Assembly: GCA_020723805.1 (NCBI GenBank)
Contig: DYID01000006.1
Coordinates: 74,694-138,693, forward strand
Source of the DNA: Anaerolinea sp.
Lineage (GTDB): Bacteria; Chloroflexota; Anaerolineae; Anaerolineales; Villigracilaceae
Length of the DNA: 64,000 nt
Reading direction: 5' to 3'
Shown here: piece by piece, positions 41,781 to 54,084 of the stretch
Position numbering within the stretch: the first letter of the stretch is position 1
Layout: the number at the start of each line of letters is the position of its first letter
Notes under the pieces: generated by a model
The model's input: the letters and a program-made list of their open reading frames with translations, nothing else
Databases searched by the model: none
Told to the model about the DNA's origin: nothing
Program-made: the position numbers and the translations under genes

Positions 41781-42809
41781 TTATTTCTGGTTGCTCAGCG
41801 CCGCAAACAACTTCTGACTAAATATTCTTTTCCCACAATTGCTAAGATGACTGCTGTTGTAGAATAGTTCGGGCTGTTCTCGAATCTCCGGCTCGTTTGA
41901 AAAGTTGTAATATTCTACCCGATATATTCGTTGGATTTTTTTGATCTTGTTTTGCATGTTGTCAATGATGTAACTTCCGTGTTGCATAAAATATTCGGTA
42001 TATTTTTTATAATAAGTGGGGGTAAATAAAATAACCCGAATTCCCTTTGCTTGTAAGTGATCTATTATTCTAGCCAGCGCATTGAAAGCATCTTGTTCCA
42101 GTCCCTTGTGCCTTGCTGCCATCTCGATGGAACTGGATACGTTGAAATTAGCAATATCCCAAGCTTCTTTCTCCAGTTGGTCTGCTGTGTAATGAATACA
42201 TATCCCCCATGCAGAGCTTGTAACCACGCTGTCTGGCGGGAGAAAATTTAATGGTGTGCTGCCGTCAGTAACCCCTTTCCAAACCCCCTGCCAGTTGTCC
42301 GAACGCGCTACACTCATGATATGTGTATAGGCTTCTGCCTTGCCTAGTACGAAATTGTGTATATCCCCTGCAATGGGAGACCAGGTGGGTGCTAACGAGT
42401 AAAATTTTATTCTGCGTGTTCGAAATGGTTCAAAGGTGGCATTGTCGCGGGTGAACGAGTAATAAGAGATCGCAATAAAGACGGTTTTCAAATTGGGTAA
42501 TTCATTTGTTATGAGCATGGCATGTTTTTCAATTTCGAACAAATCGGCAATGGCTAATGTCAGAGATTGTCCGTCAATTTCTGACACCGAATAGTCTATA
42601 GCGTTACCATGAGAATTTCCAAGGGTGATTGCCTCAATCTGTTCGCGACGTTTATCCAGTTCTTGCCATTGCTGTTGGTACTCAACGCGCCAAGCTTCCA
42701 GGGGGGCAATTCTATCTGCCATAGCACCCAAGCAGTTTGAAATTAGGATCAATCCAGCTGTAAATAGAGGCAATTTGACAAAGAAAAATTTCGTGTTAAA
42801 AGCGCGCAT
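41781..42809 (-). CDS. SGNH-hydrolase-like periplasmic/exported acyltransferase partner (AlgJ/DltD/PatB-like)
   Basis: N-terminal TM helix, LGNSH (block I), FYNSSHL (block V); coupled to an MBOAT; AT-rich. Confidence 0.6.
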   Translation of the reverse strand: MRAFNTKFFFVKLPLFTAGLILISNCLGAMADRIAPLEAWRVEYQQQWQELDKRREQIEAITLGNSHGNAIDYSVSEIDGQSLTLAIADLFEIEKHAMLITNELPNLKTVFIAISYYSFTRDNATFEPFRTRRIKFYSLAPTWSPIAGDIHNFVLGKAEAYTHIMSVARSDNWQGVWKGVTDGSTPLNFLPPDSVVTSSAWGICIHYTADQLEKEAWDIANFNVSSSIEMAARHKGLEQDAFNALARIIDHLQAKGIRVILFTPTYYKKYTEYFMQHGSYIIDNMQNKIKKIQRIYRVEYYNFSNEPEIREQPELFYNSSHLSNCGKRIFSQKLFAALSNQK

Positions 42810-44261
42810 AGATGAATTCGCTCCTGCCAAATTTTCCAAACATGACGATGGCCATGACTAATGCATAATAAAACAACCAGCGCACCCAAACTGGCTGATG
42901 GCGGATTGCGTCATGTAGACTGCCTTTTTTTCTTTGCACCCAGTAAATTGTTTCCATCAGGAAAATTGCCAAAATGGCGATAAGCCAATCGTACCAGCCA
43001 AGAGGCATAAGAGCAGATAGGGATGCGCTTGTACCCGGTTTCGTGAATAAATTTTGGATAATGTAAAGTGCGTCCGTCATCGAGTTGGCGCGAAAGAAGA
43101 TCCATGCAAAACAAACCAAGTGAAATGTAACAAGGATATTCACTACCTTAACGCTCCATGACGGCATAAAGGATAGCAAGTTTAGATGTATGTTTTTGAG
43201 ATTCCACAGAATGGAACCCACCATAAAAATACCGTGCAGCGCTCCCCAAACGATGAAATTCCATGTCGCACCGTGCCAGAAACCGCTGGCAAGCATAGTG
43301 AACATGGGAGGAAAAACAAGTATAACGATGTTATTAGGTGCTGTAAATTTTCGCTTCAAGGCGCGATTGAGTGGATAAAAAATATAATCCCTCAACCAAT
43401 TATATAAACTAATGTGCCACCGTCTCCAAAATTCGATAATGGATGGAGCAAGGTACGGTTGGTTGAAGTTTTCCTGCAATTTGATTCCCAAGACACGCGC
43501 TACACCGATGGCAATATCTGCGTAGCCCGAAAAATCGCAATAGATTTGATACGCAAATGCGTAGGTAGCAAGGATTAAGGGAAATCCGGTATATGCTGTG
43601 GGGGCATTGTACACTGCGTTGACTGCTGCTGATAGCCGATCGGCAATGACCAACTTCTTAAAAAAACCCCATGTCACACGTTGAAATCCACTGATGACTT
43701 GTTCGTAATCGGGTACTGGCGCAGCGTGGAATTGTGGAAGTAAATCATTTGCCCGCGCAATGGGTCCCGCCGTTACATGCGGAAAAAAGGCAATAAAGAG
43801 AGCGTAAATGCCGACATGTCTTTCTGTTTTGATGATGCCACGATATATATCAGTGATGTAACTTAGAGTTTGGAATGTGAAGTAGGATATACCTAACGGT
43901 ACTAACAAGTTGAAATCCGTCGGTAAATTCTTATCGCTTACCTGTTCAAAAATGGCTAGTAGCACACTGCTTGTAAATTTGGGAGTTCTAAAAAGGATCC
44001 ACAATCCCAAAATGAAAAACAGGCTGAGAAAAAAAGTGTACGCCGCTTTGATGGCTGAGCCTCTTTCCAAATCATGTAACCGCTTACATATCCAATGATG
44101 GTTATGGCTATAGGTACAACAATATAGTTGACATTCCATCTTGCATAGAAAAAATAACTTGCCCCCAATAGAAAGAGCCAACGCCAGCGGTGCGGGATGT
44201 TAAAACATACGAACGCCACGAATGGAAAGAAAATTAAGAACTCGATAGAGTTAAATTTCAC
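42796..44261 (-). pseudogene. MBOAT family O-acyltransferase (AlgI/DltB-like), frameshifted at a T7 tract (44029-44035)
   Basis: The N-terminal frame MKFNSIEFLIFF...KRRTLF switches to the frame LSLFFILG...PLGISYFTF, AGPI, FSGY, FWRRWHISL, SGFWHGA. One extra T restores a single ORF. Confidence 0.8.
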
Positions 44262-44480
44262 ATCAAATATCCTTTTGCACCGTTACATACTTGAACATCC
44301 AAATCTGTTGCCATTTCAATGGCTTTTGGCAAAATATGTACTTTGGGTTTTACACAAAAATGTTTTTATGTTCGCGTAACTTATCCCGGTCTTGTGACTT
44401 TTGTGCGAAGTAGGCAGATTAATGAGAACTGGGAGGTTTGGACAAGAGAAATGACTTGTTACAGTTTAGCGTAACAAGTG

Positions 44481-44507
44481 CGTAACCAGTCATTGACTGG
44501 TTACGCT
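44481..44507. repeat. REP-like palindrome
   Basis: GCGTAACCAGTC-ATT-GACTGGTTACGC. Confidence 0.6.
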
Positions 44508-44771
44508 GCTAATCCATTCGTTTTCTCCGCGGCTAGAATTGGAATGTCACCTCTAAGTCAAACCCAAGAAGGAAAAAATCTTAGATCAGCTATTCTATTT
44601 TAGCCCGTTTTTCGCAAAAAGTGAGAGTTTTGCGAAGAAAACGTCCCGATTTGCATGCGGCGCGGCCTCACCCAGAGCGTTTGCCTGATTTTGTCCGCGA
44701 TTGTCTTGCTACCATCCGTCTGTTGGACTTGATCGGTCTGCTTGCCTAGGATCAATTCCCCGAACACAGCT

Positions 44772-45217
44772 TAATATTACAGCGCAAGGTTCGGAGAGAG
44801 AGCAGCTGATTGAGCCAATTTTGCTTTGCGACGAGAGCGATAAGCGACAAAATTGCGTTTCTGGTAGAACCCAGCCTTGTTTGGGAATGTTCCTCACCAG
44901 GTCTTTTGGCATTCCCCAGCAAGCCGCGCACATAGGTTGTGCTTCGCGCGATTGCTCTACTCGTCGAAAAGCAGGTTCAAACCGTTCCATGTACTCTGTC
45001 AGTGCTTCCAAAAATCGTTCAACGTCTTCCTGGCTCGAATTGCATTCGGGCGCAGGGCAGGTTTCAACAGGCTCAACCCAACGGGTTTCAGTTACAATCG
45101 TGGCAGGCATGGTTTTCTTCGTCTCCTTCCCACTTGGCCGTGGTTGGAGAAAGATACCATGCCTTCCTATTCCAGGCTGCTCAACCTGCCCCTTCGCGAC
45201 TTTGCGCTGTAATATTA
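44772..45217 (-). mobile_element. Internally deleted IS701-family element (~440 bp, MITE-like)
   Basis: Perfect 16-bp inverted ends TAATATTACAGCGCAA (44772-44787 / 45202-45217). It contains a transposase N-terminus (YMERFEPAFRRVEQ, frameshifted YVRGLL) joined to a C-terminus-like stretch (YQKRNFVAYRSRRK...LAL*). Flanks are CTAA/TTAA. Confidence 0.75.
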
Positions 45218-45568
45218 GGGTGTTTGCGGCAAATTCCTTTCCAAATTCTCGGTAAACAGACGAAGCACTTCTTCCGGCACGCCTTTGCGCGCGCCGAACA
45301 TCAACTTGCGCCCGACAGCGTCGAGCGGATAGATGTCCATGACCAATTTGCTTCCTTCGCCGTCTGATTGAACAACGCAGGTCATTTGCGTCCGGTCGCC
45401 CAGCACTTTGCCTAACAGGGTCTTGTCGAACTTGACTTCGAGCTGGAACGCCTCAGGCTTGGATTTCAGGATTTGTCCTTTGAGTGTTTCCACGGCTTTT
45501 TGCGCGGCGTGATAGACTGACGCAGGGTCTTGTGAATACGTTTTTTCCTGGTGTACTTCGAATGGCAT
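45215..45568 (-). CDS. Small hypothetical protein
   Basis: GGAG RBS; 117 codons with normal composition; the stop codon coincides with the IS end. Confidence 0.65.
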   Translation of the reverse strand: MPFEVHQEKTYSQDPASVYHAAQKAVETLKGQILKSKPEAFQLEVKFDKTLLGKVLGDRTQMTCVVQSDGEGSKLVMDIYPLDAVGRKLMFGARKGVPEEVLRLFTENLERNLPQTP

Positions 45569-45645
45569 GACGGACTCCGTCTTCTTATTGAACATTGTGG
45601 TCTTGGTACGTGGCGCATAAAGCGCCGCTACTCGACCACCACAGA

Positions 45646-46575
45646 TTACAACTTTTCGTACTTCACCTGCTGGAACAATTCCTCGATCAAAGTGCGGGAG
45701 CCGACCTCGGTGCCGCTCATGGAAGCGGTGGCGGCACCGCTGGCGGCGCCCCAGCCCAGGGATTCCTTGAGGGAATATCCTTGCGATAACGCCCACACCA
45801 GCCCGCCAACCATCGAGTCCCCGGCGCCGATGGGATTTTTCTCTTTTACTTTTGGACTGTGCACCAGCCAACTCTCGTCCGCTGTTTGCAGGAGCGCGCC
45901 TTTCTTGCCCATCGAGATGACCACGTTCTGAGCCCCCATTCGCCGCAGTGCTTTTGCAGCGACCACGATTTGCGCGGTTGTATTCACTGGCAAGCCTGTC
46001 AGTTTTCGTGTCTCTTCGGCGTTGGGCTTGACGAGGAAGGGCTTGGCTTCACATCCGAGGTGCAGGCTTTCACCGCTGGTATCCAGGATGGTGATGGCTT
46101 GACGGGCGTTGAGGATCTCGATGATCTGCGCATAGAACGAATCGGGTACGGCGGGGGGAAGGCTTCCTGCCAGCACCCACCAGTCTCCAGGTCCAGCGAG
46201 CGAGGCGATTTTGTCCAGCAGTTCACGCTGTTTGGGCTCGTCAACCGACGGTCCCTTTTCATTGACCTTGATATAGTGGTCATGTTTTTCGGTGACGATG
46301 CTGACGTTGGTGCGCGTCTCGCCTGGGATGGAAACAAAATCAGTTGTGATGCCGAGTTCCTGCAAGCCCAGACGCAGACGTTCGCCCGCCCGCCCGCCGA
46401 CGAATCCGAGTGCAGTGCTGGGCATGCCCATGGATTTGAGCAGGCGCGAAACGTTGAAGCCTTTGCCGCCGAAATCCACCTGTGACCTGACCGCCGTAAG
46501 CACCGAGTCAAATTGTATTTCGGTGACTGTCAATTCGCGGTCAATGGCGGGGTTGAGGGTGAGGGTGTAGATCAT
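45646..46575 (-). CDS. 1-phosphofructokinase family hexose kinase (PfkB/FruK-like)
   Basis: TLTLNPAID, GGKGFNVS, ETRTN, GSLPP, KPNAEE, GAGDS. Confidence 0.88.
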   Translation of the reverse strand: MIYTLTLNPAIDRELTVTEIQFDSVLTAVRSQVDFGGKGFNVSRLLKSMGMPSTALGFVGGRAGERLRLGLQELGITTDFVSIPGETRTNVSIVTEKHDHYIKVNEKGPSVDEPKQRELLDKIASLAGPGDWWVLAGSLPPAVPDSFYAQIIEILNARQAITILDTSGESLHLGCEAKPFLVKPNAEETRKLTGLPVNTTAQIVVAAKALRRMGAQNVVISMGKKGALLQTADESWLVHSPKVKEKNPIGAGDSMVGGLVWALSQGYSLKESLGWGAASGAATASMSGTEVGSRTLIEELFQQVKYEKL

Positions 46576-46599
46576 GGCGGCTCCGATGTCTGCGGCGGT

Positions 46600-48339
46600 T
46601 CAGGCAGGTTCCTGCCAGAGTTTTTCGATGAGCACTTCTTCGGCTGCGTTGGTCCACGTCCAATTAGGACCGAGTTTTTCGGCAACTTCGGGGAGGCGCT
46701 CTTTCAATTCCTTCAGGCTGGTGAGCGGCAGGTTGTGAATTTGCGGGAAGATGACGACCTTGCCCGGATAACGGCTGTCCATCACGGATTGGATGGCTTC
46801 CGCTGCCGTTTCGATTCCACCGATGGCGGCAACAACCCGGCCAGGCGATAACGTCCCTGCGATACGCCGCTCCATCACCGATGCCTGATCCTGAATCGTC
46901 AGCCCCGATGTACCCGTGTATTGTGCGTTCGAGAGATAAACGTTGCTCAGGTTGACTTTACCCAGCGTGCCGTTGGGGACACCAGCAAACAAGACCAACA
47001 TGCCATCGGGCTTCATCACGGTGTCGCCCTCTTCCATCAGCGCGGCGACCGGCACGCAGACGACCACATCATCAGCGCCTTCGCCGTGTGTGGCTTCCAT
47101 GACGAAATCATGGAAGGATTTTTTCGAGGCGTTGGGGTTGAAGATGAGCAGCGTGCGTCCCTGTTTTTCGGCGAGCGGCGTGAACATGTTGACCAGCGTT
47201 TGCAGGCGTTCGTCGCTGATTTCGGTGGCGATGACAGTCTTCGGTCCGTGGGGCAGTTCAAGGGCGCGCTGGACGTGCATCTGTCCCATCGGTCCGCCCG
47301 CGCCGATGAAGACGGCTGTGCCGCCGGCGCGCAGTTCGCAACGGTTGCGCGCCTCGCCATACGAGGCGGCGATGTCGCCGCTGTTGTTGCCTACAAAGGC
47401 AATATAATCATAGTGCAGGCGACCGAGGTCAACAGAGACCAGTCCGTCCAGCGGCTTTGTGCCGACGATGTTCATTGTGCCGCGCCGTGCGATGAAACGC
47501 GCCACCCGACTCACAGCATCCGCTGAAGACGGATTGAGCATGACAATATCGTCGAAGCCTTTATCGGTCAGTTCCTTGCTGAGCGTTTCGTAGTCGTTGA
47601 TCGAAAGACCATTCCGCTCGATGACTTTTGCATTCGTGGCAGAGACCAGTTTCTTGACCGAGGCAGGCGCATCGGTCAGCACGATGACAGCGGGTGCGCC
47701 CAACCCTTTGGAGAAAGTGTATTCGGTGGAGTCGTCGGGTTGACCGATGATCCACATTGTGCCGCCAGGTTTCGGGTCCAGCCTGCGGCGCTGGGTGTAG
47801 GCGGCGACCACGCATCCCCACGGCTCCAGCAATGCGGATTCGGCGTAGCCCATGTCGTCATCCACAGGCAGGAGACAGGCGCCGGCGTCGGTTTCCAGTA
47901 CTTCCTTTCCGATGCAGTGATACTGCACCAGTCCGCCGGGGATGGTGTATCCATAGGCAGTGCTCATGCCGTTCTGATAAATGTCGGGTTGCACGGCGAG
48001 ACGTTGACCGGGGCGATATTTATCTGCCAAATTTTTGCCGACCTTGATAATGGTAAGCGAGACCTCGTGTCCGAGGCGCGTGGGTTCAACGGCAAGGTTG
48101 CGGTTGTAGAGTTTGGGATGACTGCTACCCTGTTTGAGAATCTTCACATCTGAAAAGCAAATGCTGACGCTGTCAATGCGGACGAGCAGTTGATCGTCGT
48201 TCGGTTCGGGAATGGTGAACGGTTCGGGCTTGCCGTTTTTGCCCATGTTTTCCATGCCCGCCCCGTAGAGATTCCACGCATAACTTTGTTGCGGCAGAGA
48301 ATGATTTGCCGCACGGTATTTTTGAAATTTTTCTCCCAT
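46600..48339 (-). CDS. Zinc-dependent MDR dehydrogenase, L-sorbose-1-phosphate-reductase (SorE)-like, with a duplicated Rossmann domain
   Basis: ICFSD, GHE, LLEPWGC, GAGGPMG, TGTSG, GKVVIFP; 579 aa. Confidence 0.75.
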   Translation of the reverse strand: MGEKFQKYRAANHSLPQQSYAWNLYGAGMENMGKNGKPEPFTIPEPNDDQLLVRIDSVSICFSDVKILKQGSSHPKLYNRNLAVEPTRLGHEVSLTIIKVGKNLADKYRPGQRLAVQPDIYQNGMSTAYGYTIPGGLVQYHCIGKEVLETDAGACLLPVDDDMGYAESALLEPWGCVVAAYTQRRRLDPKPGGTMWIIGQPDDSTEYTFSKGLGAPAVIVLTDAPASVKKLVSATNAKVIERNGLSINDYETLSKELTDKGFDDIVMLNPSSADAVSRVARFIARRGTMNIVGTKPLDGLVSVDLGRLHYDYIAFVGNNSGDIAASYGEARNRCELRAGGTAVFIGAGGPMGQMHVQRALELPHGPKTVIATEISDERLQTLVNMFTPLAEKQGRTLLIFNPNASKKSFHDFVMEATHGEGADDVVVCVPVAALMEEGDTVMKPDGMLVLFAGVPNGTLGKVNLSNVYLSNAQYTGTSGLTIQDQASVMERRIAGTLSPGRVVAAIGGIETAAEAIQSVMDSRYPGKVVIFPQIHNLPLTSLKELKERLPEVAEKLGPNWTWTNAAEEVLIEKLWQEPA

Positions 48340-48358
48340 GATTTTTTTCCTTTGAAGT

Positions 48359-50404
48359 TTACATCTTCAATTCTTTTTTCACCAACTCGCGTACGTCGCG
48401 CGCGGTGGCGCATTCTAATGCCTGTTGCGCGAGCGCCTGCAGGTCGGATGCTTTCAAGCCGCGTATCTGCGCTTTGACGAGCGGAATGGATGGCACGCTG
48501 ATGCTCAACTCGTCTATGCCCAAGCCAATCAAAATCGGCACGGCATACGGGTCGGAGCCGAGTTCGCCGCAAATGCCCGCCCATTTGCCGTGTTTGTGCG
48601 CGCCTTCGATGGTCTTTGCAATCAACCTCAGCACGGCGGGATGCAAGCCGTCCTGTTTGGCGGAGAGTAACGAGTGACCTCTATCCATGGCGAGCGTATA
48701 TTGCGTCAGGTCATTCGTCCCGATGGAGAAGAAATCCACTTCCTTCGCCAGCACATCCGCCATCAGCGCGGCAGACGGGACCTCGATCATGATGCCTGCC
48801 GCCACGCGCGGAATCTTCAACTCGATCTGTAGTTCATCCAACATCAGCCGTGCCCGCCGATATTCTTCGATGTCGCCCACCATCGGGAACATGATTTGCA
48901 GATTGCCATACAAGCCCGCCCGCAGAATGGCGCGTAACTGTTGGCGGAACAATTCAGGACGGTTCAAGCACAAACGAATACCGCGTTCGCCCAAAAACGG
49001 ATTGTCCTCCCTTTGCATTTCGATGTAGGGCAGAGGTTTGTCGCCGCCGACATCCAGGGTGCGGACGATGACGGGGCGTTTGCCCATCACCTCCGCGATG
49101 GAGCGATAGACTTCGAATTGCTCCGCTTCGGTGGGCGCCGTGGTCCGCTCCAGGAAAAGAAACTCGGTTCGCAACAACCCGATGCCTGCCGCGCCCATCT
49201 TCAAGGCTTTTTCTGCATCCTCGAGCGATCCCGCATTGGCAACCACCTCCACGTGCCGCCCGTCCACAGTGACTGCGGGCGTCGTTGCATGTTCCAGCGC
49301 GACGCGGCGTTTCTCCAGCCAGGCATTGCGTTCCTGTTCTGCGAGTTGAAGTTCTTCGGGCAGTGGGTTGAATGTCACTGTGCCGTCGCTTCCATGGAGA
49401 ATGATGTACGAATCGTTTTCCAACTTCAAAACGGACTCGTCCACGCCGACCACAGCGGGCAGCCCCAATGCCCGCGCTAGAATCGCCGTGTGCGAGGTTG
49501 GTCCGCCGTTGACAATACAAAAACCAAGTACCAAATCCTTGTTGAACGAAACCGTGTCGGATGGGGAGAGTTCGCGGGCGACGACCACGACGGGTTTATC
49601 GGGGAGTAAATCGGCTTTGTCCTCCGCGCCGACCATCAAGCGCAGCACGCGCCTGCCCACATCGCGCAGGTCATCGGCGCGGGCGGAAAGCAGCGGGTCA
49701 TTCAATGCCGCCACCACCATGGCGCTGTCTTCGATGGTTTCCTTCCAGGCTTTCAGCGCATCCTGCCCCTTTTGGAAGCGTTCATAGACGGCTTCGTTCA
49801 GTTCAGGGTCGTCGAGCAGACCGAGATGCGCGTCGAAGATGGCGGCTTCGGCTTTCATGCCCTGCTCGATCATTTGTTTATTGAGTTTGTTCAATTGTTC
49901 GCGTGCCCGAGCCAGCGCGTCCTGCAAACGTTCCCAGCCCACCACCAGCGTGTCGGAAATCTCGTCAATGGGAATTTCCTGATGCTGAAACTGATACACG
50001 GGACCGATGGCAATGCCAGGTGATGCGCCAACGCCCCGCAGAGCGTTGGTCTTCGTTGGTTTGATTTCCTCGATGGGCTTGGTTTCACTTTTCGATGTGG
50101 GAGGCGCAACAGGTTTTTCCTGCGTCTCTTTCACCGCTTCGCCTTCTCCCAGTCCGGCTAAAATCGCCGCTTCGATCTCAGCCAGCGCGGTTTCTTCGTC
50201 TTCGCCGTTTGCTTCGATTTTCAACAAACTGCCTTTCGATGCCCCCAGTGTCAGCACCGAGATTAAACTTTTGGCATTCGCTTTTTTCTCCCCGTGCCAG
50301 ATGGTGACATTCGACTTGAACTGCTTGACCAGATTTACCAGAGTCTTGGCAGGGCGCGCATGTAATCCCGTTTCATTGGTAATGGTAATTTCCAGCTGCT
50401 TCAT
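48359..50404 (-). CDS. ptsP: HPr-Enzyme I fusion (PEP-protein phosphotransferase)
   Basis: HPr GLHARPA and AKSLISVL, a linker, then EI with GGPTSH, GLLRTEF, RTLDVGGDK, SIGTNDL, CGE. Confidence 0.88.
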   Translation of the reverse strand: MKQLEITITNETGLHARPAKTLVNLVKQFKSNVTIWHGEKKANAKSLISVLTLGASKGSLLKIEANGEDEETALAEIEAAILAGLGEGEAVKETQEKPVAPPTSKSETKPIEEIKPTKTNALRGVGASPGIAIGPVYQFQHQEIPIDEISDTLVVGWERLQDALARAREQLNKLNKQMIEQGMKAEAAIFDAHLGLLDDPELNEAVYERFQKGQDALKAWKETIEDSAMVVAALNDPLLSARADDLRDVGRRVLRLMVGAEDKADLLPDKPVVVVARELSPSDTVSFNKDLVLGFCIVNGGPTSHTAILARALGLPAVVGVDESVLKLENDSYIILHGSDGTVTFNPLPEELQLAEQERNAWLEKRRVALEHATTPAVTVDGRHVEVVANAGSLEDAEKALKMGAAGIGLLRTEFLFLERTTAPTEAEQFEVYRSIAEVMGKRPVIVRTLDVGGDKPLPYIEMQREDNPFLGERGIRLCLNRPELFRQQLRAILRAGLYGNLQIMFPMVGDIEEYRRARLMLDELQIELKIPRVAAGIMIEVPSAALMADVLAKEVDFFSIGTNDLTQYTLAMDRGHSLLSAKQDGLHPAVLRLIAKTIEGAHKHGKWAGICGELGSDPYAVPILIGLGIDELSISVPSIPLVKAQIRGLKASDLQALAQQALECATARDVRELVKKELKM

Positions 50405-50484
50405 TTTCCAAACTCCATGTTGACCAGGCGCCCTCGAACCGTCATTGTTTTGCTGAATGCATTAGAGAACGCACTTAGCGTATT

Positions 50485-50925
50485 TTACTCATCGGGCTCT
50501 CTGCCCAAGTGCTTCAGGACGACTTCGGGATCGGAAGTGTGAATGAGGTCGTTCAGGATGGCTTCATCCTCCACCGCCTCTGCCAGACTTGCCAGCACAC
50601 CGACATGTTCATCTCCCTGCGCGGCGATTCCGATGACGAGATAAACGGGCTCGCCGCCTTCGTCCCATTCCACGCCCTGCGGCAACTGCAAAACGGAAAT
50701 GCCTGTTTGCAAAACATGATCCTTGTTTTCGTACACGCCATGCGGAATGGCGACGCCGCTCCCTAAATACGTGGACATGCTTTCTTCACGCTTCAACATG
50801 CCATCGATGTATTCCGGCAGAACGCAACCCGATTTCACCAGCAAATTGCCCGCCTTGCGGATGGCGTCCGTGCGGTCCGCGGCGGCGGCGTTAAGTTGAA
50901 TTCGTTCGATGGAAAGAATGGACAT
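50485..50925 (-). CDS. PTS EIIA component (mannitol/fructose type)
   Basis: STYLGSGVAIPHG, GIAAQGDEH. Confidence 0.88.
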   Translation of the reverse strand: MSILSIERIQLNAAAADRTDAIRKAGNLLVKSGCVLPEYIDGMLKREESMSTYLGSGVAIPHGVYENKDHVLQTGISVLQLPQGVEWDEGGEPVYLVIGIAAQGDEHVGVLASLAEAVEDEAILNDLIHTSDPEVVLKHLGREPDE

Positions 50926-50928
50926 GGC

Positions 50929-51258
50929 TTACAGGTCCGTGCCGACGATATCTGCCTTGTCCGCCAGGGCTTTCACGAGATTGTCGAACACGGGGTCGTT
51001 GATGAAGTGATTGAATGCCAGGACGACTGCGTTAGGCGCCTTGCTGGCGGCGGTCTTTGCCAGCCCTTTGTGAACCACCACGACCTGCGCGTCGGCGGGA
51101 ATTTCGCGAGCGGGCTTGTGGATGACGGTCACGTCGGTCACTTGTGCGGCTTTGAGTTTTTTCTTGAGCGCATTCACGCTCATCAGGCTGGACCCCATCC
51201 CTGCTTCGCAGGCAAAGATGATGGTCTTCACGTTGGCGGCGGAGATGGTGTTGGGCAT
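50929..51258 (-). CDS. PTS EIIB component (mannitol type)
   Basis: IIFACEAGMGSS phosphorylation loop. Confidence 0.88.
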   Translation of the reverse strand: MPNTISAANVKTIIFACEAGMGSSLMSVNALKKKLKAAQVTDVTVIHKPAREIPADAQVVVVHKGLAKTAASKAPNAVVLAFNHFINDPVFDNLVKALADKADIVGTDL

Positions 51259-51362
51259 GAGTTTTCTCCTTTTGTTTTGTTACAATCTTTCAAAGAAGCA
51301 TTGTATATTTTGCGTGTTAGCGAAGGGCGACGTTAGAGAACGCCGCTTGCGCCTCAGTTGTG

Positions 51363-51426
51363 GAAAACGACAGATGCGACAGGGAGCAATGTGATTGATT
51401 ATAGTGTAGCCGCATCTGTCGTTTTC
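51363..51426. repeat. Perfect 16-bp inverted repeat between EIIC and EIIB
   Basis: GAAAACGACAGATGCG / CGCATCTGTCGTTTTC with a 32-nt loop. Confidence 0.7.
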
Positions 51427-51443
51427 AATTTGAGCGGGTGAGA

Positions 51444-52472
51444 TTATTCCGCCTTATCTTCGGGCACCGGGCGCACACGCAGGATAAAGATGCCCACCAG
51501 CGCAGAGACCACAGCGCCGATTACTACGCCGGTCAACACGGGGAAGTGCTGTCCCGGAGGGGTCACAGCCAGATAGGCAAAAATGGAACCGGGGGAAGGC
51601 GTGGCAGCCAGCCCGGCGCCGCTGAGCGTGAACCACAGGTCGGCAGAGAAGCCGCCGGCGATCATGGCAAGGATCATGATGGGATGCGCCAGTACATAGG
51701 GGAAGTAAATCTCATGGATGCCGCCGAGGAAGTGAATGACCATCGAGCCGGGCGTGGATTCCTTGAGCATGCCTTTGCCGGCAACATAGAAGGCAATCAG
51801 CAATCCCAAACCGGGACCCGGGTTGGTCTCCAGCAGGAAGTGAATGGCGCGCCCGGATTCAGCTGCTGCTGCGACGCCCAAAGGTCCCAGCACGCCGTGA
51901 TTGATGGCGTTGTTCAGGAACAATACCTTAGCAGGTTCGATGAGGATTGCCGCAAAGGGCAAAAGTCGTGCGTTGACCAGCCAGTCCACGCCGGCGCCGG
52001 CGGCATTGCTGAATGCCGAAACGACCGGTCCAATTGCCAGATTGCCCAGCAGGGCAAGCAGCATGCCAAGAATGCCTGCGGAGAAGTTGTTGATCAGCAT
52101 CTCGAAGCCGACCGGGATTTTCTCCTCGAGGGCGTTGTCAACAAGTTTAATCAGCCATCCGCCAAGCGGTCCCATGATCATTGCGCCCAGCATCATGGGA
52201 ATATCGGCGCCCACGATCACACCCATGGTTGCCACAGCGCCGACCACGCCACCGCGCACGTCGCCATGCACCAATTTGCCGCCGGTGTAACCGATCAGCA
52301 GCGGAAGCAGGTACACAATCATTGGACCAACGAGTTTGGCGAGCGTCTCGTTGGGAGTCCAGCCGGTCGGGATAAAGAATGCCGTGATCAAACCCCAGGC
52401 AATGAACGCACCAATGTTGGGTATGACCATGCCAGCCAAAAACCCGCCGAATCGTTGTAACTTCTCTCTCAT
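51444..52472 (-). CDS. mtlA: PTS mannitol-family EIIC permease
   Basis: [41 protein letters not shown]. Confidence 0.85.
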
Positions 52473-52935
52473 TCTTGCATCTCCTTTCAGGATGTGTGTT
52501 TTGCCTGATATCTCAGGCGTGAATTTGCCGGGAGGCTCAGAGGAGCATCTCCCGGGTCACAGGACAGCGGGGCAGAGTGCTGTCGGGTAACCGGAGGCTT
52601 GGGGGTGTGGATCAATCTTCCGCTTCGTACGAACCGTAAGCCTGATCCTGTGTTCGGACATTTCCCGCCGCTGAGGCAGAAACGACAAAAAATTCCATGA
52701 CGCTAAACGGCATGGAATGGGTGTAGTCAAAATATGGTTATGGATTGAGGAGATGCACATGACCCGGTTCGTTGCGAGGTTCGCCTGTTGCCCGCCGATC
52801 TGCATACCGAGTGGCAAATGGTTGATTTGGTTTTGTTGCCGGGCGGTTGTCTGAGACATGGAGCCTCACAAAAGGGTGGCGGCAATGGAGGTGATAGAGG
52901 TATTAGTACTTAGGTGCCGGTTATTAACGGCGGCT

Positions 52936-52963
52936 AGTGTAAACGATTACATTTTTTTGTCAA
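52936..52963 (-). promoter_or_regulatory. PTS operon promoter with an overlapping LacI-type operator
   Basis: Minus strand TTGACA-16 nt-TACACT; the operator-like TGTAAACGATTACA (52938-52951) overlaps the spacer and -10. Confidence 0.65.
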
Positions 52964-53044
52964 GGATGATTACGTTTTTTGGTGCATTTTTCGGTTAAAT
53001 CCGATATTTTCCTCGTTTCTTGAGTTCTATAACACCCGGCTATG

Positions 53045-53056
53045 GAAAACGTTTTC
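53045..53056. promoter_or_regulatory. Second LacI-type operator
   Basis: Perfect palindrome GAAAACGTTTTC upstream of the lacI-family gene; its TATAAT is at 53077, 6 nt before the ATG. Confidence 0.6.
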
Positions 53057-53088
53057 ATCATTTTTTGGTGTGATGATATAATATTGTC

Positions 53089-54084
53089 ATGCCCAGCATT
53101 AAAGATGTTGCCCAAATTGCCGGGGTCTCCACGGCAACCGTTTCCCGTGTTCTCGCCGGCAGTGACCGTGTTAAGGAAGAGACACGCAGGCGGGTATTGA
53201 ACGCAGTTAAGGAACTCAACTATCGTCCCAACTTGGTTGCCCGCAGTTTGCGCTCGCAAAAAAGCGCCAGAATTGGGCTGGTGGTTTCCGATATTCGCAA
53301 TCCGTTCTTTACCGCCATCAGCCGCGCAGTGGAGGATGCCGCCTATGAACAAGGGTATTCGGTGTTGTTGTGTAATACAGATGAGGATCCCGCGAGGGAA
53401 GAACTTTATTTGAATATTTTGCATGATGAAAGCGTTGCCGGCATCATTTTTTCCCCCACGCAACAGTTTAGCGCGCGGCTTTCTACATTCAAATCAGATA
53501 TCCCATTCGTCATTATTGACCGTGCAGTGAATGCCGCCCAAGCCGACATGGTCTTACTGGACAATGTGGCGGCTGGATACGAGTTAACCGCCCATCTGAT
53601 TCAAAACGGCTATACAAAACTTGCGGGTCTGTTTGGCAACGCCAGCACCACCGGCAGGGACAGAAACAAAGGCTTCCGCAAGGCACTGGAAGATTTTCAG
53701 TTAAAACCCCTGACTGAGCAGTTCATTCCGCCGCGTATCCAACAAGGATATGAAACGACGTTAATGTTGTTTGATCAGCCCAATCGCCCGGACGCCATCT
53801 TTACCAGCAACAGCCTGCTCACCGCTGGCGCCTTTCAGGCAATTCGAGATCGTAGGTTGAAGGTACCGGATGATGTGGCGCTTGTAGGGTTCGATGAAAC
53901 CACATGGGGGGCGCTGGTAGATCCGCCCATTACGCTTATCGCTCAACCCACCGAAGAGATCGGGCGAACGGCAACTGAATTGCTCTTTCAGCGCATCGAA
54001 GAGCCAAGCCGCTCGCCGCGCACAGTCATTCTCAAGGGGAAACTCATTGCACGTGGTTCCAGCGCACCGCGGGCAAATAAGTAA
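53089..54084 (+). CDS. LacI family transcriptional regulator
   Basis: SIKDVAQIAGVSTATVSRV HTH, YRPN..ARSL hinge, DIRNPFF. Confidence 0.93.
   Translation: MPSIKDVAQIAGVSTATVSRVLAGSDRVKEETRRRVLNAVKELNYRPNLVARSLRSQKSARIGLVVSDIRNPFFTAISRAVEDAAYEQGYSVLLCNTDEDPAREELYLNILHDESVAGIIFSPTQQFSARLSTFKSDIPFVIIDRAVNAAQADMVLLDNVAAGYELTAHLIQNGYTKLAGLFGNASTTGRDRNKGFRKALEDFQLKPLTEQFIPPRIQQGYETTLMLFDQPNRPDAIFTSNSLLTAGAFQAIRDRRLKVPDDVALVGFDETTWGALVDPPITLIAQPTEEIGRTATELLFQRIEEPSRSPRTVILKGKLIARGSSAPRANK

What the first reader, a model, noticed from the sequence alone, without database searches (positions are those of the whole stretch)
45646..52472. Mannitol-type PTS operon without mtlD: possible fructose-1-phosphate route
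Seen: MtlA-type EIIC/EIIB/EIIA and an HPr-EI fusion are followed by a SorE-like Zn-MDR dehydrogenase and a 1-phosphofructokinase-family kinase; there is no MtlD. Established: MtlD oxidises C5 of mannitol-1-P to give fructose-6-P, whereas SorE interconverts L-sorbose-1-P and glucitol-6-P at the carbon next to the phosphate. Inference: a SorE-like oxidation at C2 of mannitol-1-P would give fructose-1-P, which would explain the co-encoded 1-PFK. This would be an alternative hexitol pathway, or the operon may serve a different hexitol.
Basis: partly seen in the sequence, partly recalled or inferred. Interest (0 to 1): 0.68.

Follow-up and report, generated by a model that had tools for sequence, protein, structure and literature searches.

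The report
Mannitol uptake operon bypassing MtlD
This uncultured Chloroflexota bacterium has a complete mannitol-type sugar-import operon where the textbook mannitol-1-phosphate dehydrogenase is replaced by an unusual zinc dehydrogenase plus a fructose-1-phosphate kinase, which points to an untested route from mannitol into glycolysis through fructose-1-phosphate.

Summary
On the minus strand, 52472-45646 encodes EIIC(Mtl), EIIB, EIIA, an HPr-EI fusion, a 579-aa Zn-MDR and a FruK-type kinase. A divergent LacI regulator sits upstream, and its operator overlaps the operon promoter. The 97%-complete genome has no MtlD-family gene, and this is its only PTS.

The MDR is a distant SorE/YggP relative (27-29% identity over the whole length). 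It carries an internal duplicate of its own Rossmann domain that has lost the NAD motif.

The cassette PTS-MDR-FruK recurs across at least six phyla, never beside MtlD:
- In 301 sampled Chloroflexota, all 16 genomes with an MtlA-type EIIC lack the MtlD family, and 15 of them have this MDR next to it.
- Herpetosiphon cassettes lack the kinase, but all six genomes keep a FruK. Four of them have no fructose PTS.
- The same LacI-type regulator and operator control a canonical fructose-PTS operon in Herpetosiphon.
- Three cultured carriers are published as mannitol-positive.

Best reading (about 0.6): mannitol-1-P is oxidised next to the phosphate to fructose-1-P, then phosphorylated to FBP. No enzyme assay exists and I found no paper describing it. 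Earlier notes of this scan reached the same idea for other genomes.

The parts
53089..54084 (+). LacI-family repressor, divergent from the operon
   Evidence: Pfam LacI plus Peripla_BP_1/3. It is 59% identical to the regulator of the Herpetosiphon aurantiacus fructose-PTS operon. Orthologues at 47-60% identity sit beside the same cassette in Desulfobacterota, SAR324 and Myxococcota.
53044..53057 (.). Second operator-like palindrome (GGAAAACGTTTTCA, one mismatch), 32 nt upstream of the lacI start
   Evidence: two matches at up to one mismatch in 64 kb against 0.15 expected; none of 100 shuffles reached two.
52936..52963 (-). Best sigma-70-like promoter of the region (TTGACA-16-TACACT, 10 of 12)
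   Evidence: It lies about 455 nt upstream of the EIIC start. The leader is conserved only in the nearest relatives and its 100-codon ORF is probably not coding.
52938..52951 (.). LacI-type operator TGTAAACGATTACA, overlapping the promoter spacer and -10
   Evidence: It is the only exact match to TGWAAWCGWTTWCA in the 64-kb window. The same motif lies just upstream of EIIC in 17 of 19 LacI-bearing cassettes checked. It occurs twice in front of the Herpetosiphon LacI-EIIA/HPr/EI-FruK-FruA operon.
51444..52472 (-). PTS EIIC, mannitol family
   Evidence: TIGR00851 scores 484.5 against a cut-off of 468.4. It is 61% identical to E. coli MtlA EIIC and 60% to CmtA. It is the only PF02378 EIIC in the genome.
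51363..51426 (-). Perfect 18-bp stem with a 28-nt loop in the EIIC-EIIB spacer, followed by UUUUCC
   Evidence: -35.9 kcal/mol, z = -5.1, and none of 200 shuffles folded as well. Its function was not tested; it could be a partial terminator or an mRNA stabiliser.
50929..51258 (-). PTS EIIB (Mtl type), active-site Cys17 in CEAGMGSS
50485..50925 (-). PTS EIIA (Mtl/Fru type, PTS_EIIA_2), active-site His in IPHG
48359..50404 (-). HPr-Enzyme I fusion; the only HPr and the only EI in the genome
   Evidence: Pfam PTS-HPr plus PEP-utilisers N, mobile and C domains; TIGR01417 scores 577 bits. His15 and the EI His motif are present. It is the sole PF00381 hit in the genome and no second EI was found.
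46600..48339 (-). 579-aa Zn-dependent MDR of the SorE/YggP group with a duplicated Rossmann domain; proposed mannitol-1-P dehydrogenase forming fructose-1-P
   Evidence: - Domains: ADH_N at residues 48-143 and ADH_zinc_N at 350-487.
- Similarity: 29% and 27% identity to E. coli YggP and 27% and 27% to CFT073 SorE, over the catalytic domain, both Rossmann copies and the C-terminal tail.
- Duplication: residues 185-326 against 332-484 give hhalign probability 99.75%, E 2.7e-27. The first copy has lost GxGxxG (IIGQPDD against GAGGPMG).
- Structure: AF2 pLDDT 94.8. Foldseek finds polyol/threonine-dehydrogenase-type MDRs at TM 0.78.
- The acidic residue after beta-2 (ATEISD) suggests NAD rather than NADP. 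This last point is inference.
45646..46575 (-). 1-phosphofructokinase (FruK-type PfkB kinase)
   Evidence: TIGR03828 equivalog scores 318.8 against a cut-off of 292. LacC scores 154 against 410 and Pfk-2 scores 145 against 353. The best solved relatives are the fructose-1-phosphate kinases 2abq and 2jg5.

Best explanation
This is a self-contained, horizontally mobile catabolic cassette for mannitol, or a very close hexitol.

Proposed steps:
1. The LacI-type repressor is relieved, probably by fructose-1-P (inferred).
2. The operon's own EI-HPr, EIIA and EIIB pass phosphate from PEP to the MtlA-type EIIC, which imports mannitol as mannitol-1-P. This follows from family membership.
3. The SorE/YggP-type zinc dehydrogenase oxidises the hydroxyl on the carbon next to the phosphate (C2) with NAD+, giving D-fructose-1-P. 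MtlD would instead oxidise C5 and give fructose-6-P. This step is inferred.
4. The FruK-type kinase converts fructose-1-P to fructose-1,6-bisphosphate. This follows from family membership.
5. The housekeeping class II aldolase cleaves the bisphosphate.

Chemically this is the SorE reaction run in the oxidative direction. Mannitol-1-P differs from SorE's glucitol-6-P only at the carbon furthest from the phosphate.
For: **Gene content and intact active sites**.

**This genome**
- It has no MtlD-family gene.
- It has one EIIC and one HPr, both in this operon, and no FruA. The FruK therefore has no fructose PTS to serve.
- PfkA homologues exist, so a fructose-6-P product would not need its own kinase.

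**Linkage across phyla**
- Of the 80 best loci from Chloroflexota, Desulfobacterota, Gammaproteobacteria, Acidimicrobiales, Myxococcota and SAR324, 75 show the PTS. The other 5 have at most 686 nt of sequence upstream of the MDR, too little to hold the PTS genes.
- 74 show the kinase, 53 show the full set, and none shows MtlD.
- Of 50 host genomes, 45 have no PF01232 protein. The three of the six hits that I scanned are fructuronate or tagaturonate reductases.

**Sampled Chloroflexota (301 genomes)**
- 16 have an MtlA-type EIIC and 15 of these have this MDR adjacent.
- The 16th contig ends inside HPr-EI.
- None of the 16 has PF01232, although 15 other genomes in the sample do.

**The kinase role is conserved even when the gene is not**
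- In one same-family relative the kinase is a different FruK: 30% identity, 338 bits on TIGR03828.
- 7 of 9 cassette kinases from other phyla pass the FruK cut-off.
- Herpetosiphon cassettes lack a kinase, but all 6 genomes keep a FruK behind a LacI gene. In the one reduced locus I read, G060, the two operators are kept as well. 4 of the 6 have no FruA.

**Shared regulation**
- The same regulator (59% identity) and the same operator motif control a canonical fructose PTS-FruK operon in H. aurantiacus.
- Fructose-1-P is the intermediate the two pathways would share.

**Downstream context**: Desulfobacterota cassettes are followed by a bona fide class II FBP aldolase (574 bits against a cut-off of 511), then gap and eno.

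**Published phenotypes**
- Desulfopila aestuarii DSM 18488 uses mannitol as an electron donor (PMC8497536).
- All three carry the cassette and none has MtlD.
Against: - No enzyme of this MDR group acting on mannitol-1-P has been assayed. The regiochemistry rests on 27-29% identity to SorE/YggP plus gene context.
- More distant double-Rossmann paralogues (29-40% identity) sit in rhamnose-like clusters, so the wider family is not confined to one substrate.
- HMM membership cannot separate FruK from a tagatose-1-P kinase.
- A probable counter-example exists. A genome matching H. llansteffanense CA052B by size and contig count (6.14 Mb, 170 contigs) has an intact cassette and FruK. That strain was reported mannitol-negative, though it was negative for every sugar but glucose.
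- The phenotype links are correlations. Other mannitol routes, such as an ABC or TRAP importer with an MDR- or SDR-type mannitol 2-dehydrogenase, were not excluded.
Confidence: 0.6

Rival explanations
1. The logic is the same but the substrate differs. The MtlA-type PTS would import another polyol, such as glucitol, galactitol, altritol or arabinitol. The MDR would make the matching ketose-1-P (for example tagatose-1-P from galactitol-1-P). The FruK-like kinase would then make a ketose bisphosphate.
For: - E. coli has two MtlA-family systems. One of them, CmtAB, has no known substrate and sits beside the MDR relative YggP. The EIIC here is equally close to both.
- FruK-family HMMs cannot exclude tagatose-1-P kinases (own knowledge).
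Against: - The EIIC is 61% identical to the characterised mannitol transporter.
- The cassettes carry no tagatose-bisphosphate aldolase. The aldolases that follow some of them are bona fide FBP aldolases next to gap and eno.
- The regulator and operator are shared with a fructose operon, and the fructose-operon FruK is reused in Herpetosiphon.
- Cultured carriers are mannitol-positive.
Confidence: 0.17
2. The MDR is a functional analogue of MtlD or GatD. It would oxidise the carbon far from the phosphate and give fructose-6-P. The PfkB kinase would then act as a dedicated 6-phosphofructokinase, like E. coli Pfk-2.
For: - GatD shows that Zn-MDRs can oxidise hexitol phosphates at the remote carbon (established knowledge).
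- Pfk-2 belongs to the same TIGR03168 subfamily as the kinase here.
Against: - The kinase passes the FruK equivalog cut-off (319 against 292) but scores far below the Pfk-2 model (145 against 353).
- The genome already has two PfkA homologues.
- The GatD model scores only 20 bits on the MDR, whereas SorE and YggP align over the whole length.
- Herpetosiphon supplies the kinase from a fructose-operon FruK.
Confidence: 0.08
3. The PTS actually takes up fructose and yields fructose-1-P directly for FruK. The MDR would be a side branch that reduces fructose-1-P to mannitol-1-P, for example for redox balance or compatible-solute synthesis.
For: - The Mtl and Fru EII families are related, and the regulator resembles a fructose-operon regulator.
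- SorE itself works in the reductive direction (established knowledge).
Against: - The EIIC is MtlA-type above the curated cut-off and 61% identical to MtlA. E. coli FruA finds nothing in the genome.
- H. aurantiacus has both a true FruA operon and this cassette.
- No mannitol-1-phosphatase is linked to the cassette.
- The MDR's fixed place between the PTS and the kinase in cassettes from six phyla fits an obligatory pathway step.
Confidence: 0.06

Closest known systems
E. coli K-12 'cryptic mannitol' cluster cmtB-cmtA-yggP-yggF-fumE-yggC
   Same: An MtlA-family EIIC (60% identical to the one here) and EIIA are followed directly by a SorE/YggP-family Zn-MDR, with no MtlD in the cluster.
   Different: - YggP is 425 aa with a single Rossmann domain and is only 27-29% identical.
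- The cluster has no FruK, EI or HPr. Its partners are a GlpX-type FBPase (YggF) and a P-loop kinase (YggC).
- I found no paper describing the function of the E. coli cluster.
Canonical mannitol PTS operon mtlA-mtlD(-mtlR) of E. coli and Firmicutes
   Same: The transporter family and phosphorelay are the same, with the EIIC 61% identical to E. coli MtlA. Some sister cassettes even carry an Mga/HTH plus EIIB-domain regulator of the Firmicute MtlR kind.
   Different: - There is no mannitol-1-phosphate 5-dehydrogenase anywhere in the genome.
- An MDR and a FruK take its place.
- EI and HPr are encoded inside the operon.
- A LacI-type repressor is used.
[quoted passage not shown]
   Same: - It belongs to the same MDR subgroup: Cys/His-Glu/Glu zinc site, shared C-terminal tail, and conserved K66, H74, R113, Q117 and K527 in the pairwise alignments.
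- Its redox chemistry acts on the carbon next to the phosphate of a hexitol or ketose phosphate (established knowledge).
   Different: - Identity is 27%.
- SorE is 409 aa against 579 aa here, without the duplicated domain.
- SorE works reductively behind a mannose-family PTS and is followed by a glucitol-6-P dehydrogenase, not a FruK.
Fructose PTS operons (E. coli fruBKA; Herpetosiphon LacI-EIIA/HPr/EI-FruK-FruA; haloarchaeal self-contained fructose PTS)
   Same: - A FruK converts fructose-1-P to FBP.
- EI and HPr are carried in the operon.
- In Herpetosiphon the LacI regulator is orthologous (59% identity) and uses the same operator motif.
   Different: The EIIC is Mtl-type, not Fru-type, and a dehydrogenase step is inserted between uptake and the kinase.
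GatD, galactitol-1-phosphate 5-dehydrogenase
   Same: It is a Zn-MDR acting on a PTS-derived hexitol phosphate.
   Different: It oxidises the carbon remote from the phosphate and has an ordinary 346-aa architecture. Its NCBIfam model scores only 20 bits here against a cut-off of 550.

Membership tests
Mannitol-family PTS (MtlA/CmtA type EIICBA) | EIIC matches the curated mtlA model above its cut-off | tested here: met
   TIGR00851 scores 484.5 against 468.4. Identity is 61% to MtlA and 60% to CmtA.
Mannitol-family PTS (MtlA/CmtA type EIICBA) | Phosphorelay residues present: EIIB Cys, EIIA His, HPr His15, EI His | tested here: met
   CEAGMGSS, IPHG, GLHARPA and TSHTAI are all present.
Mannitol-family PTS (MtlA/CmtA type EIICBA) | Transports and phosphorylates D-mannitol | not testable with these tools
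   Support is indirect only: three cultured carriers are reported mannitol-positive.
Canonical mtl operon (mtlA + mtlD) | Mannitol-1-phosphate 5-dehydrogenase (PF01232/PF08125, NF00264x) present in the operon or genome | tested here: not met
   The 97%-complete genome has no PF01232 match and no tblastn hit with E. coli MtlD. No MtlD hit occurs in any of the 80 related loci.
SorE/YggP group of Zn-MDRs | Whole-length homology including the group's C-terminal extension | tested here: met
   BLASTP gives E 6e-28 and 1e-19 to YggP, and 5e-28 and 2e-19 to SorE. The alignments cover the catalytic domain, the Rossmann domain and the tail.
SorE/YggP group of Zn-MDRs | Catalytic zinc ligands (Cys, His-Glu, Glu-Pro) and a GxGxxG NAD(P) site | tested here: met
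   C61, H91, E92 and E172 are invariant in 33 family members. GAGGPMG lies at residues 346-352.
SorE/YggP group of Zn-MDRs | Single Rossmann domain, about 410-425 aa | tested here: not met
   The protein is 579 aa with a second, degenerate Rossmann copy at residues 185-326 (hhalign 99.75%; AF2 model).
SorE/YggP group of Zn-MDRs | Redox reaction at the carbon adjacent to the phosphate of a hexitol or ketose phosphate | not testable with these tools
   This is inferred from the family and from the obligatory FruK partner. There is no assay and no solved structure of the group.
1-phosphofructokinase (FruK) | Scores above the curated equivalog cut-off and below those of the sister kinases | tested here: met
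   TIGR03828 scores 318.8 against 292, LacC 154 against 410, and Pfk-2 145 against 353. The top PDB hits are fructose-1-P kinases.
LacI-family repressor with palindromic operator | HTH plus periplasmic-binding-protein fold, and a palindrome in the target promoter | tested here: met
   A unique TGTAAACGATTACA overlaps the promoter. The effector was not tested.

The most novel reading that the evidence does not exclude
The double-Rossmann MDR would be a fructose-1-phosphate-forming mannitol-1-phosphate 2-dehydrogenase. I found this activity named in no paper, and to my knowledge it has no EC entry. Together with FruK it would form a second, widespread PTS route for mannitol. In Chloroflexota it would be the only such route. 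The same reaction would then be the missing function of E. coli YggP and its 'cryptic' cmt operon.
Probability: 0.5. Interest if true: 0.72.

Novelty: new variant of a known kind. Interest (0 to 1): 0.6.

Why it matters
- It would add a new enzyme activity and a second entry route for one of the commonest sugar alcohols.
- It would give a testable function to a large orphan dehydrogenase group. At E <= 1e-30, 290 clusters at 50% identity were found. The search of 90%-identity clusters scored only its best 8000 candidates and found 4232 hits at E <= 0.001.
- It would suggest what E. coli's long-unexplained cmtBA-yggP genes do.
- It would correct genome-based predictions that call mannitol use from the presence of mtlD. 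In the sampled Chloroflexota, every genome with a mannitol-type PTS lacks mtlD.
- The cassette carries its own EI and HPr and ends in FBP, so it can work in any recipient that has an FBP aldolase. That fits its scattered distribution across phyla.

Tried and rejected
- **mtlD elsewhere in the genome:** rejected.
- **PF01232 hits in other cassette-bearing genomes as hidden MtlDs:** rejected for the three hits I scanned. They are about 490 aa: two are fructuronate or tagaturonate reductases above their curated cut-offs, and the third best matches fructuronate reductase but below its cut-off.
- **A second PTS that could feed FruK:** rejected. There is a single EIIC, HPr and EI, and no FruA.
- **A riboswitch or known RNA in the 455-nt leader or elsewhere in the operon:** there is no credible Rfam match. 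The 100-codon leader ORF is conserved less well as protein (64%) than the DNA is (80%), and only in the nearest relative, so it is probably not a gene.
- **A solved structure of a Mtl-type EIIC or of SorE/YggP, to read substrate contacts:** none is in the PDB.
- **Literature:** I found no paper for 'mannitol-1-phosphate 2-dehydrogenase', 'fructose-1-phosphate reductase', or a function for yggP, yggF or cmtAB.
- **The aldolase after some cassettes as a tagatose-bisphosphate aldolase:** rejected. It passes the class II FBP aldolase equivalog.

Full report
**What is there.**
On the minus strand, 52472-45646 holds six tightly spaced genes:
- a mannitol-family EIIC, 342 aa, TIGR00851 at 484.5 bits against a cut-off of 468.4;
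- EIIB, 109 aa;
- EIIA, 146 aa;
- an HPr-Enzyme I fusion, 681 aa;
- a 579-aa zinc MDR dehydrogenase;
- a PfkB kinase, 309 aa, that passes NCBI's 1-phosphofructokinase equivalog (TIGR03828, 318.8 against 292).

The kinase scores far below the tagatose-6-P kinase model (154 against 410) and the Pfk-2 model (145 against 353). All phosphorelay and catalytic motifs are intact. A LacI-family gene (53089-54084) is transcribed divergently.

**No MtlD, and no other PTS.**
- The window lies in a 3.69-Mb Chloroflexota (Anaerolineales-like) genome that is 97.2% complete.
- Pfam PF01232, the mannitol dehydrogenase family that includes MtlD, has no match in it. The same search found the family in 7 of 14 control genomes. 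E. coli MtlD finds nothing by tblastn.
- The genome has exactly one PTS EIIC (PF02378) and one HPr (PF00381), both in this operon. It has no second EI, EIIA or EIIB and no FruA.
- It does have two PfkA homologues, a class II FBP aldolase and a GlpX FBPase.
- So the FruK here cannot be serving a fructose PTS. A fructose-6-P product would not have needed a private kinase.

**The dehydrogenase.**
- I located E. coli K-12 yggP and CFT073 sorE in annotated records. The two are 47% identical to each other.
- The window's MDR aligns with both over its whole length, at 27-29% identity. This includes the C-terminal tail that ordinary MDRs lack. 'SorE-like' is therefore fair, though distant, and the protein is equally YggP-like.
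- Both alignments hit the query twice. Residues 185-326 are a second copy of the family's own Rossmann domain (profile-profile probability 99.75%, E 2.7e-27). That copy has lost the glycine-rich NAD motif: IIGQPDD against GAGGPMG at residues 346-352.
- AlphaFold2 models the whole protein confidently (pLDDT 94.8, pTM 0.93). Foldseek finds polyol- and threonine-dehydrogenase-type MDRs (sorbitol dehydrogenase among them) that cover everything except the extra domain (TM about 0.78 on the target).
- The zinc ligands C61, H91, E92 and E172 are invariant in 33 diverse homologues.
- No member of the SorE/YggP group has a solved structure.

**The cassette is conserved and mobile.**
- A scan of one genome per species found 578 relatives of the MDR. 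I analysed the best 80, at 54-93% identity. They come from Chloroflexota, Desulfobacterota (Desulfogranum marinum, Desulfopila aestuarii, Desulforhopalus), Gammaproteobacteria (Psychromonas hadalis, Reinekea), Acidimicrobiales, Myxococcota and SAR324.
- In 75 of the 80 the MDR lies beside the Mtl-type PTS genes. In the other five it lies within 686 nt of the contig start, which leaves too little room for the PTS genes.
- 74 have the FruK-type kinase, 53 show the complete set, and none has an MtlD hit.
- Of 50 host genomes, 45 have no PF01232 protein at all. The three of the six hits that I scanned are about 490 aa: two pass the fructuronate or tagaturonate reductase models, and the third best matches fructuronate reductase below its cut-off.
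- In an even sample of 301 Chloroflexota genomes, 16 have an MtlA-type EIIC. In 15 of these the long MDR is adjacent, and in the 16th the contig ends inside HPr-EI. None of the 16 has PF01232, although 15 other genomes in the sample do. In this sample of the phylum, the mannitol-type PTS never co-occurs with MtlD and is paired with this MDR wherever the contig allows a check.

**Evidence that the intermediate is fructose-1-P.**
- *The kinase function is conserved even when the gene is not.* In one same-family relative the kinase is a different FruK, only 30% identical yet scoring 338 bits on the FruK model. Seven of nine kinases from other phyla pass the FruK cut-off, and the remaining two have it as their best equivalog.
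- *Herpetosiphon.* Its cassettes lack a kinase, but all six Herpetosiphon genomes have a FruK elsewhere.
  - In H. aurantiacus that FruK lies in a canonical fructose operon: LacI, EIIA-HPr-EI, FruK, FruA.
  - Four of the six genomes have no FruA at all.
  - In the one reduced locus I read (G060), only LacI, two operators and FruK remain.
  - A FruK kept without a fructose PTS, in genomes whose only linked source of a hexose phosphate is the Mtl/MDR cassette, is what the fructose-1-P route predicts.
- *Shared regulation.*
  - The LacI gene here is 59% identical to the Herpetosiphon fructose-operon regulator.
  - The palindrome TGWAAWCGWTTWCA occurs exactly once in the 64-kb window, at 52938-52951. 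It overlaps the best promoter of the region, TTGACA-16-TACACT. A one-mismatch copy lies 32 nt upstream of the lacI start; two matches were found against 0.15 expected by chance.
  - The same motif sits just upstream of EIIC in 17 of 19 LacI-bearing cassettes from several phyla, and twice in the Herpetosiphon fru control region.
  - Fructose-1-P is the metabolite the two pathways would share. Its role as the effector is inference.
- *Downstream genes.* In Desulfobacterota the cassette is followed by a bona fide class II FBP aldolase (574 bits against 511), gap and eno. That fits FBP as the end product.

**Evidence that the substrate is mannitol.**
- The EIIC is 61% identical to E. coli MtlA.
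- Some sister cassettes use an Mga/HTH plus EIIB-domain regulator of the Firmicute MtlR kind in place of LacI.
[quoted passage not shown] Desulfopila aestuarii DSM 18488 uses mannitol as an electron donor (PMC8497536). All three carry the cassette and lack MtlD. H. geysericola also lacks FruA.
- A caveat: a genome matching H. llansteffanense CA052B by size and contig number (6.14 Mb, 170 contigs) has an intact cassette. That strain was reported negative for mannitol, and for every sugar but glucose. These links are correlations, and I did not exclude other mannitol routes.

**Chemistry (established knowledge plus inference).**
- MtlD (EC 1.1.1.17) oxidises C5 of mannitol-1-P to fructose-6-P.
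- SorE interconverts L-sorbose-1-P and D-glucitol-6-P at the carbon next to the phosphate.
- Mannitol-1-P, which is the same molecule as mannitol-6-P by symmetry, differs from glucitol-6-P only at the carbon furthest from the phosphate. The same reaction on it gives D-fructose-1-P.
- The acidic residue after beta-2 of the functional Rossmann copy (ATEISD; D in the family consensus) suggests NAD+, which suits a catabolic oxidation.

**What remains open.**
- No assay exists for any member.
- Distant double-Rossmann paralogues (29-40% identity) lie in rhamnose-like clusters with class II aldolase-SDR fusions and TIM-barrel isomerases. The broader family therefore has other substrates.
- HMMs cannot tell FruK from a tagatose-1-P kinase.
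- I found no paper describing the reaction or a function for yggP or cmtAB. Subscription journals are not covered by the library.

**Relation to earlier notes of this scan.**
- After I had found the cmt-yggP link, the notebook of the scan showed that other agents reached the same reading for similar operons in a Breznakia, another gut Firmicute, an Anaerolineaceae and a soil Chloroflexota genome. These are AI notes and do not count as independent evidence.
- As far as the short notes show, the following appear to be additions made here:
  - the survey of sampled Chloroflexota showing that MtlA-type EIIC and the MtlD family do not co-occur;
  - FruK retention without FruA in Herpetosiphon;
  - the shared LacI regulator and operator;
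  - the non-orthologous FruK replacement;
  - the published mannitol phenotypes, including the possible counter-example.

**Verdict.**
- It is a new variant of a known kind of system, a PTS hexitol operon with a different dehydrogenase step. It is widespread and directly testable.
- Confidence in the fructose-1-P route for mannitol is about 0.6.

Noticed in passing
window 51363-51426 (minus strand), between EIIC and EIIB: A perfect 18-bp stem with a 28-nt loop, followed by UUUUCC (-35.9 kcal/mol, z -5.1). It could be a partial terminator or a stabiliser that sets the ratio of EIIC to the rest of the operon. It could also be one of this genome's repeat-built stems.
   Followed up: partly
window 52473-52935: There is an unusually long leader of about 455 nt between the operator-covered promoter and the EIIC start. 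It is conserved only in the nearest relatives. Its 100-codon ORF (52859-52557) has no family match and looks non-coding. There is no Rfam match.
   Followed up: partly
L055 10818-11213; L080 10685-11125; L092 10754-11149; L101 10724-11131; L060 6338-6742: Many sister cassettes carry a conserved gene of about 130 aa for a small membrane protein (motif GLGLYFGLFFRP) between the MDR and FruK. It has no Pfam or NCBIfam match. It is absent from this window, where the two genes are 24 nt apart.
   Followed up: no
L024 10100-11038 (genome G019, same family as the window's genome): The cassette's kinase has been replaced by a non-orthologous FruK, 30% identical to the one here and scoring 338 bits on TIGR03828.
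   Followed up: yes
L140 297-2623 compared with L138 4094-10747 (Herpetosiphon): Four of six Herpetosiphon genomes have no FruA. In the one locus I read (G060), both EIIA-HPr-EI and FruA are missing from the fructose operon, while the LacI gene, both operators and FruK are kept.
   Followed up: yes
L032-L037 (Chloroflexota genomes G012, G154, G237, G178, G079): Distant double-Rossmann MDR paralogues (29-40% identity) sit next to class II aldolase or aldolase-SDR fusions, xylose-isomerase-like TIM barrels, a second ordinary MDR and 2-oxoacid dehydrogenase components. This looks like a rhamnose or deoxy-sugar context. It hints that the wider family may work on other ketose-1-phosphates.
   Followed up: partly
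L095 3100-4641; L100 3118-4725; L048 3140-4708; L134 2224-3777: Cassettes without the LacI gene instead have an upstream regulator of about 515-535 aa. The Herpetosiphon one has HTH/Mga and PTS EIIB domains, like Firmicute MtlR. The same cassette thus uses two alternative control systems.
   Followed up: partly
window 42001-46000: G+C drops to 0.43-0.49, against about 0.57 elsewhere, just downstream of the operon over a DltB-like MBOAT gene (42796-44181). Earlier first-reader notes mention an IS remnant and a frameshift there.
   Followed up: no
own genome, contig C11 129761-130666: A second full-length PfkB-family kinase lies elsewhere in the genome. It is 32% identical to the operon's FruK and 30% to E. 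coli FruK. I did not determine its specificity or context.
   Followed up: no
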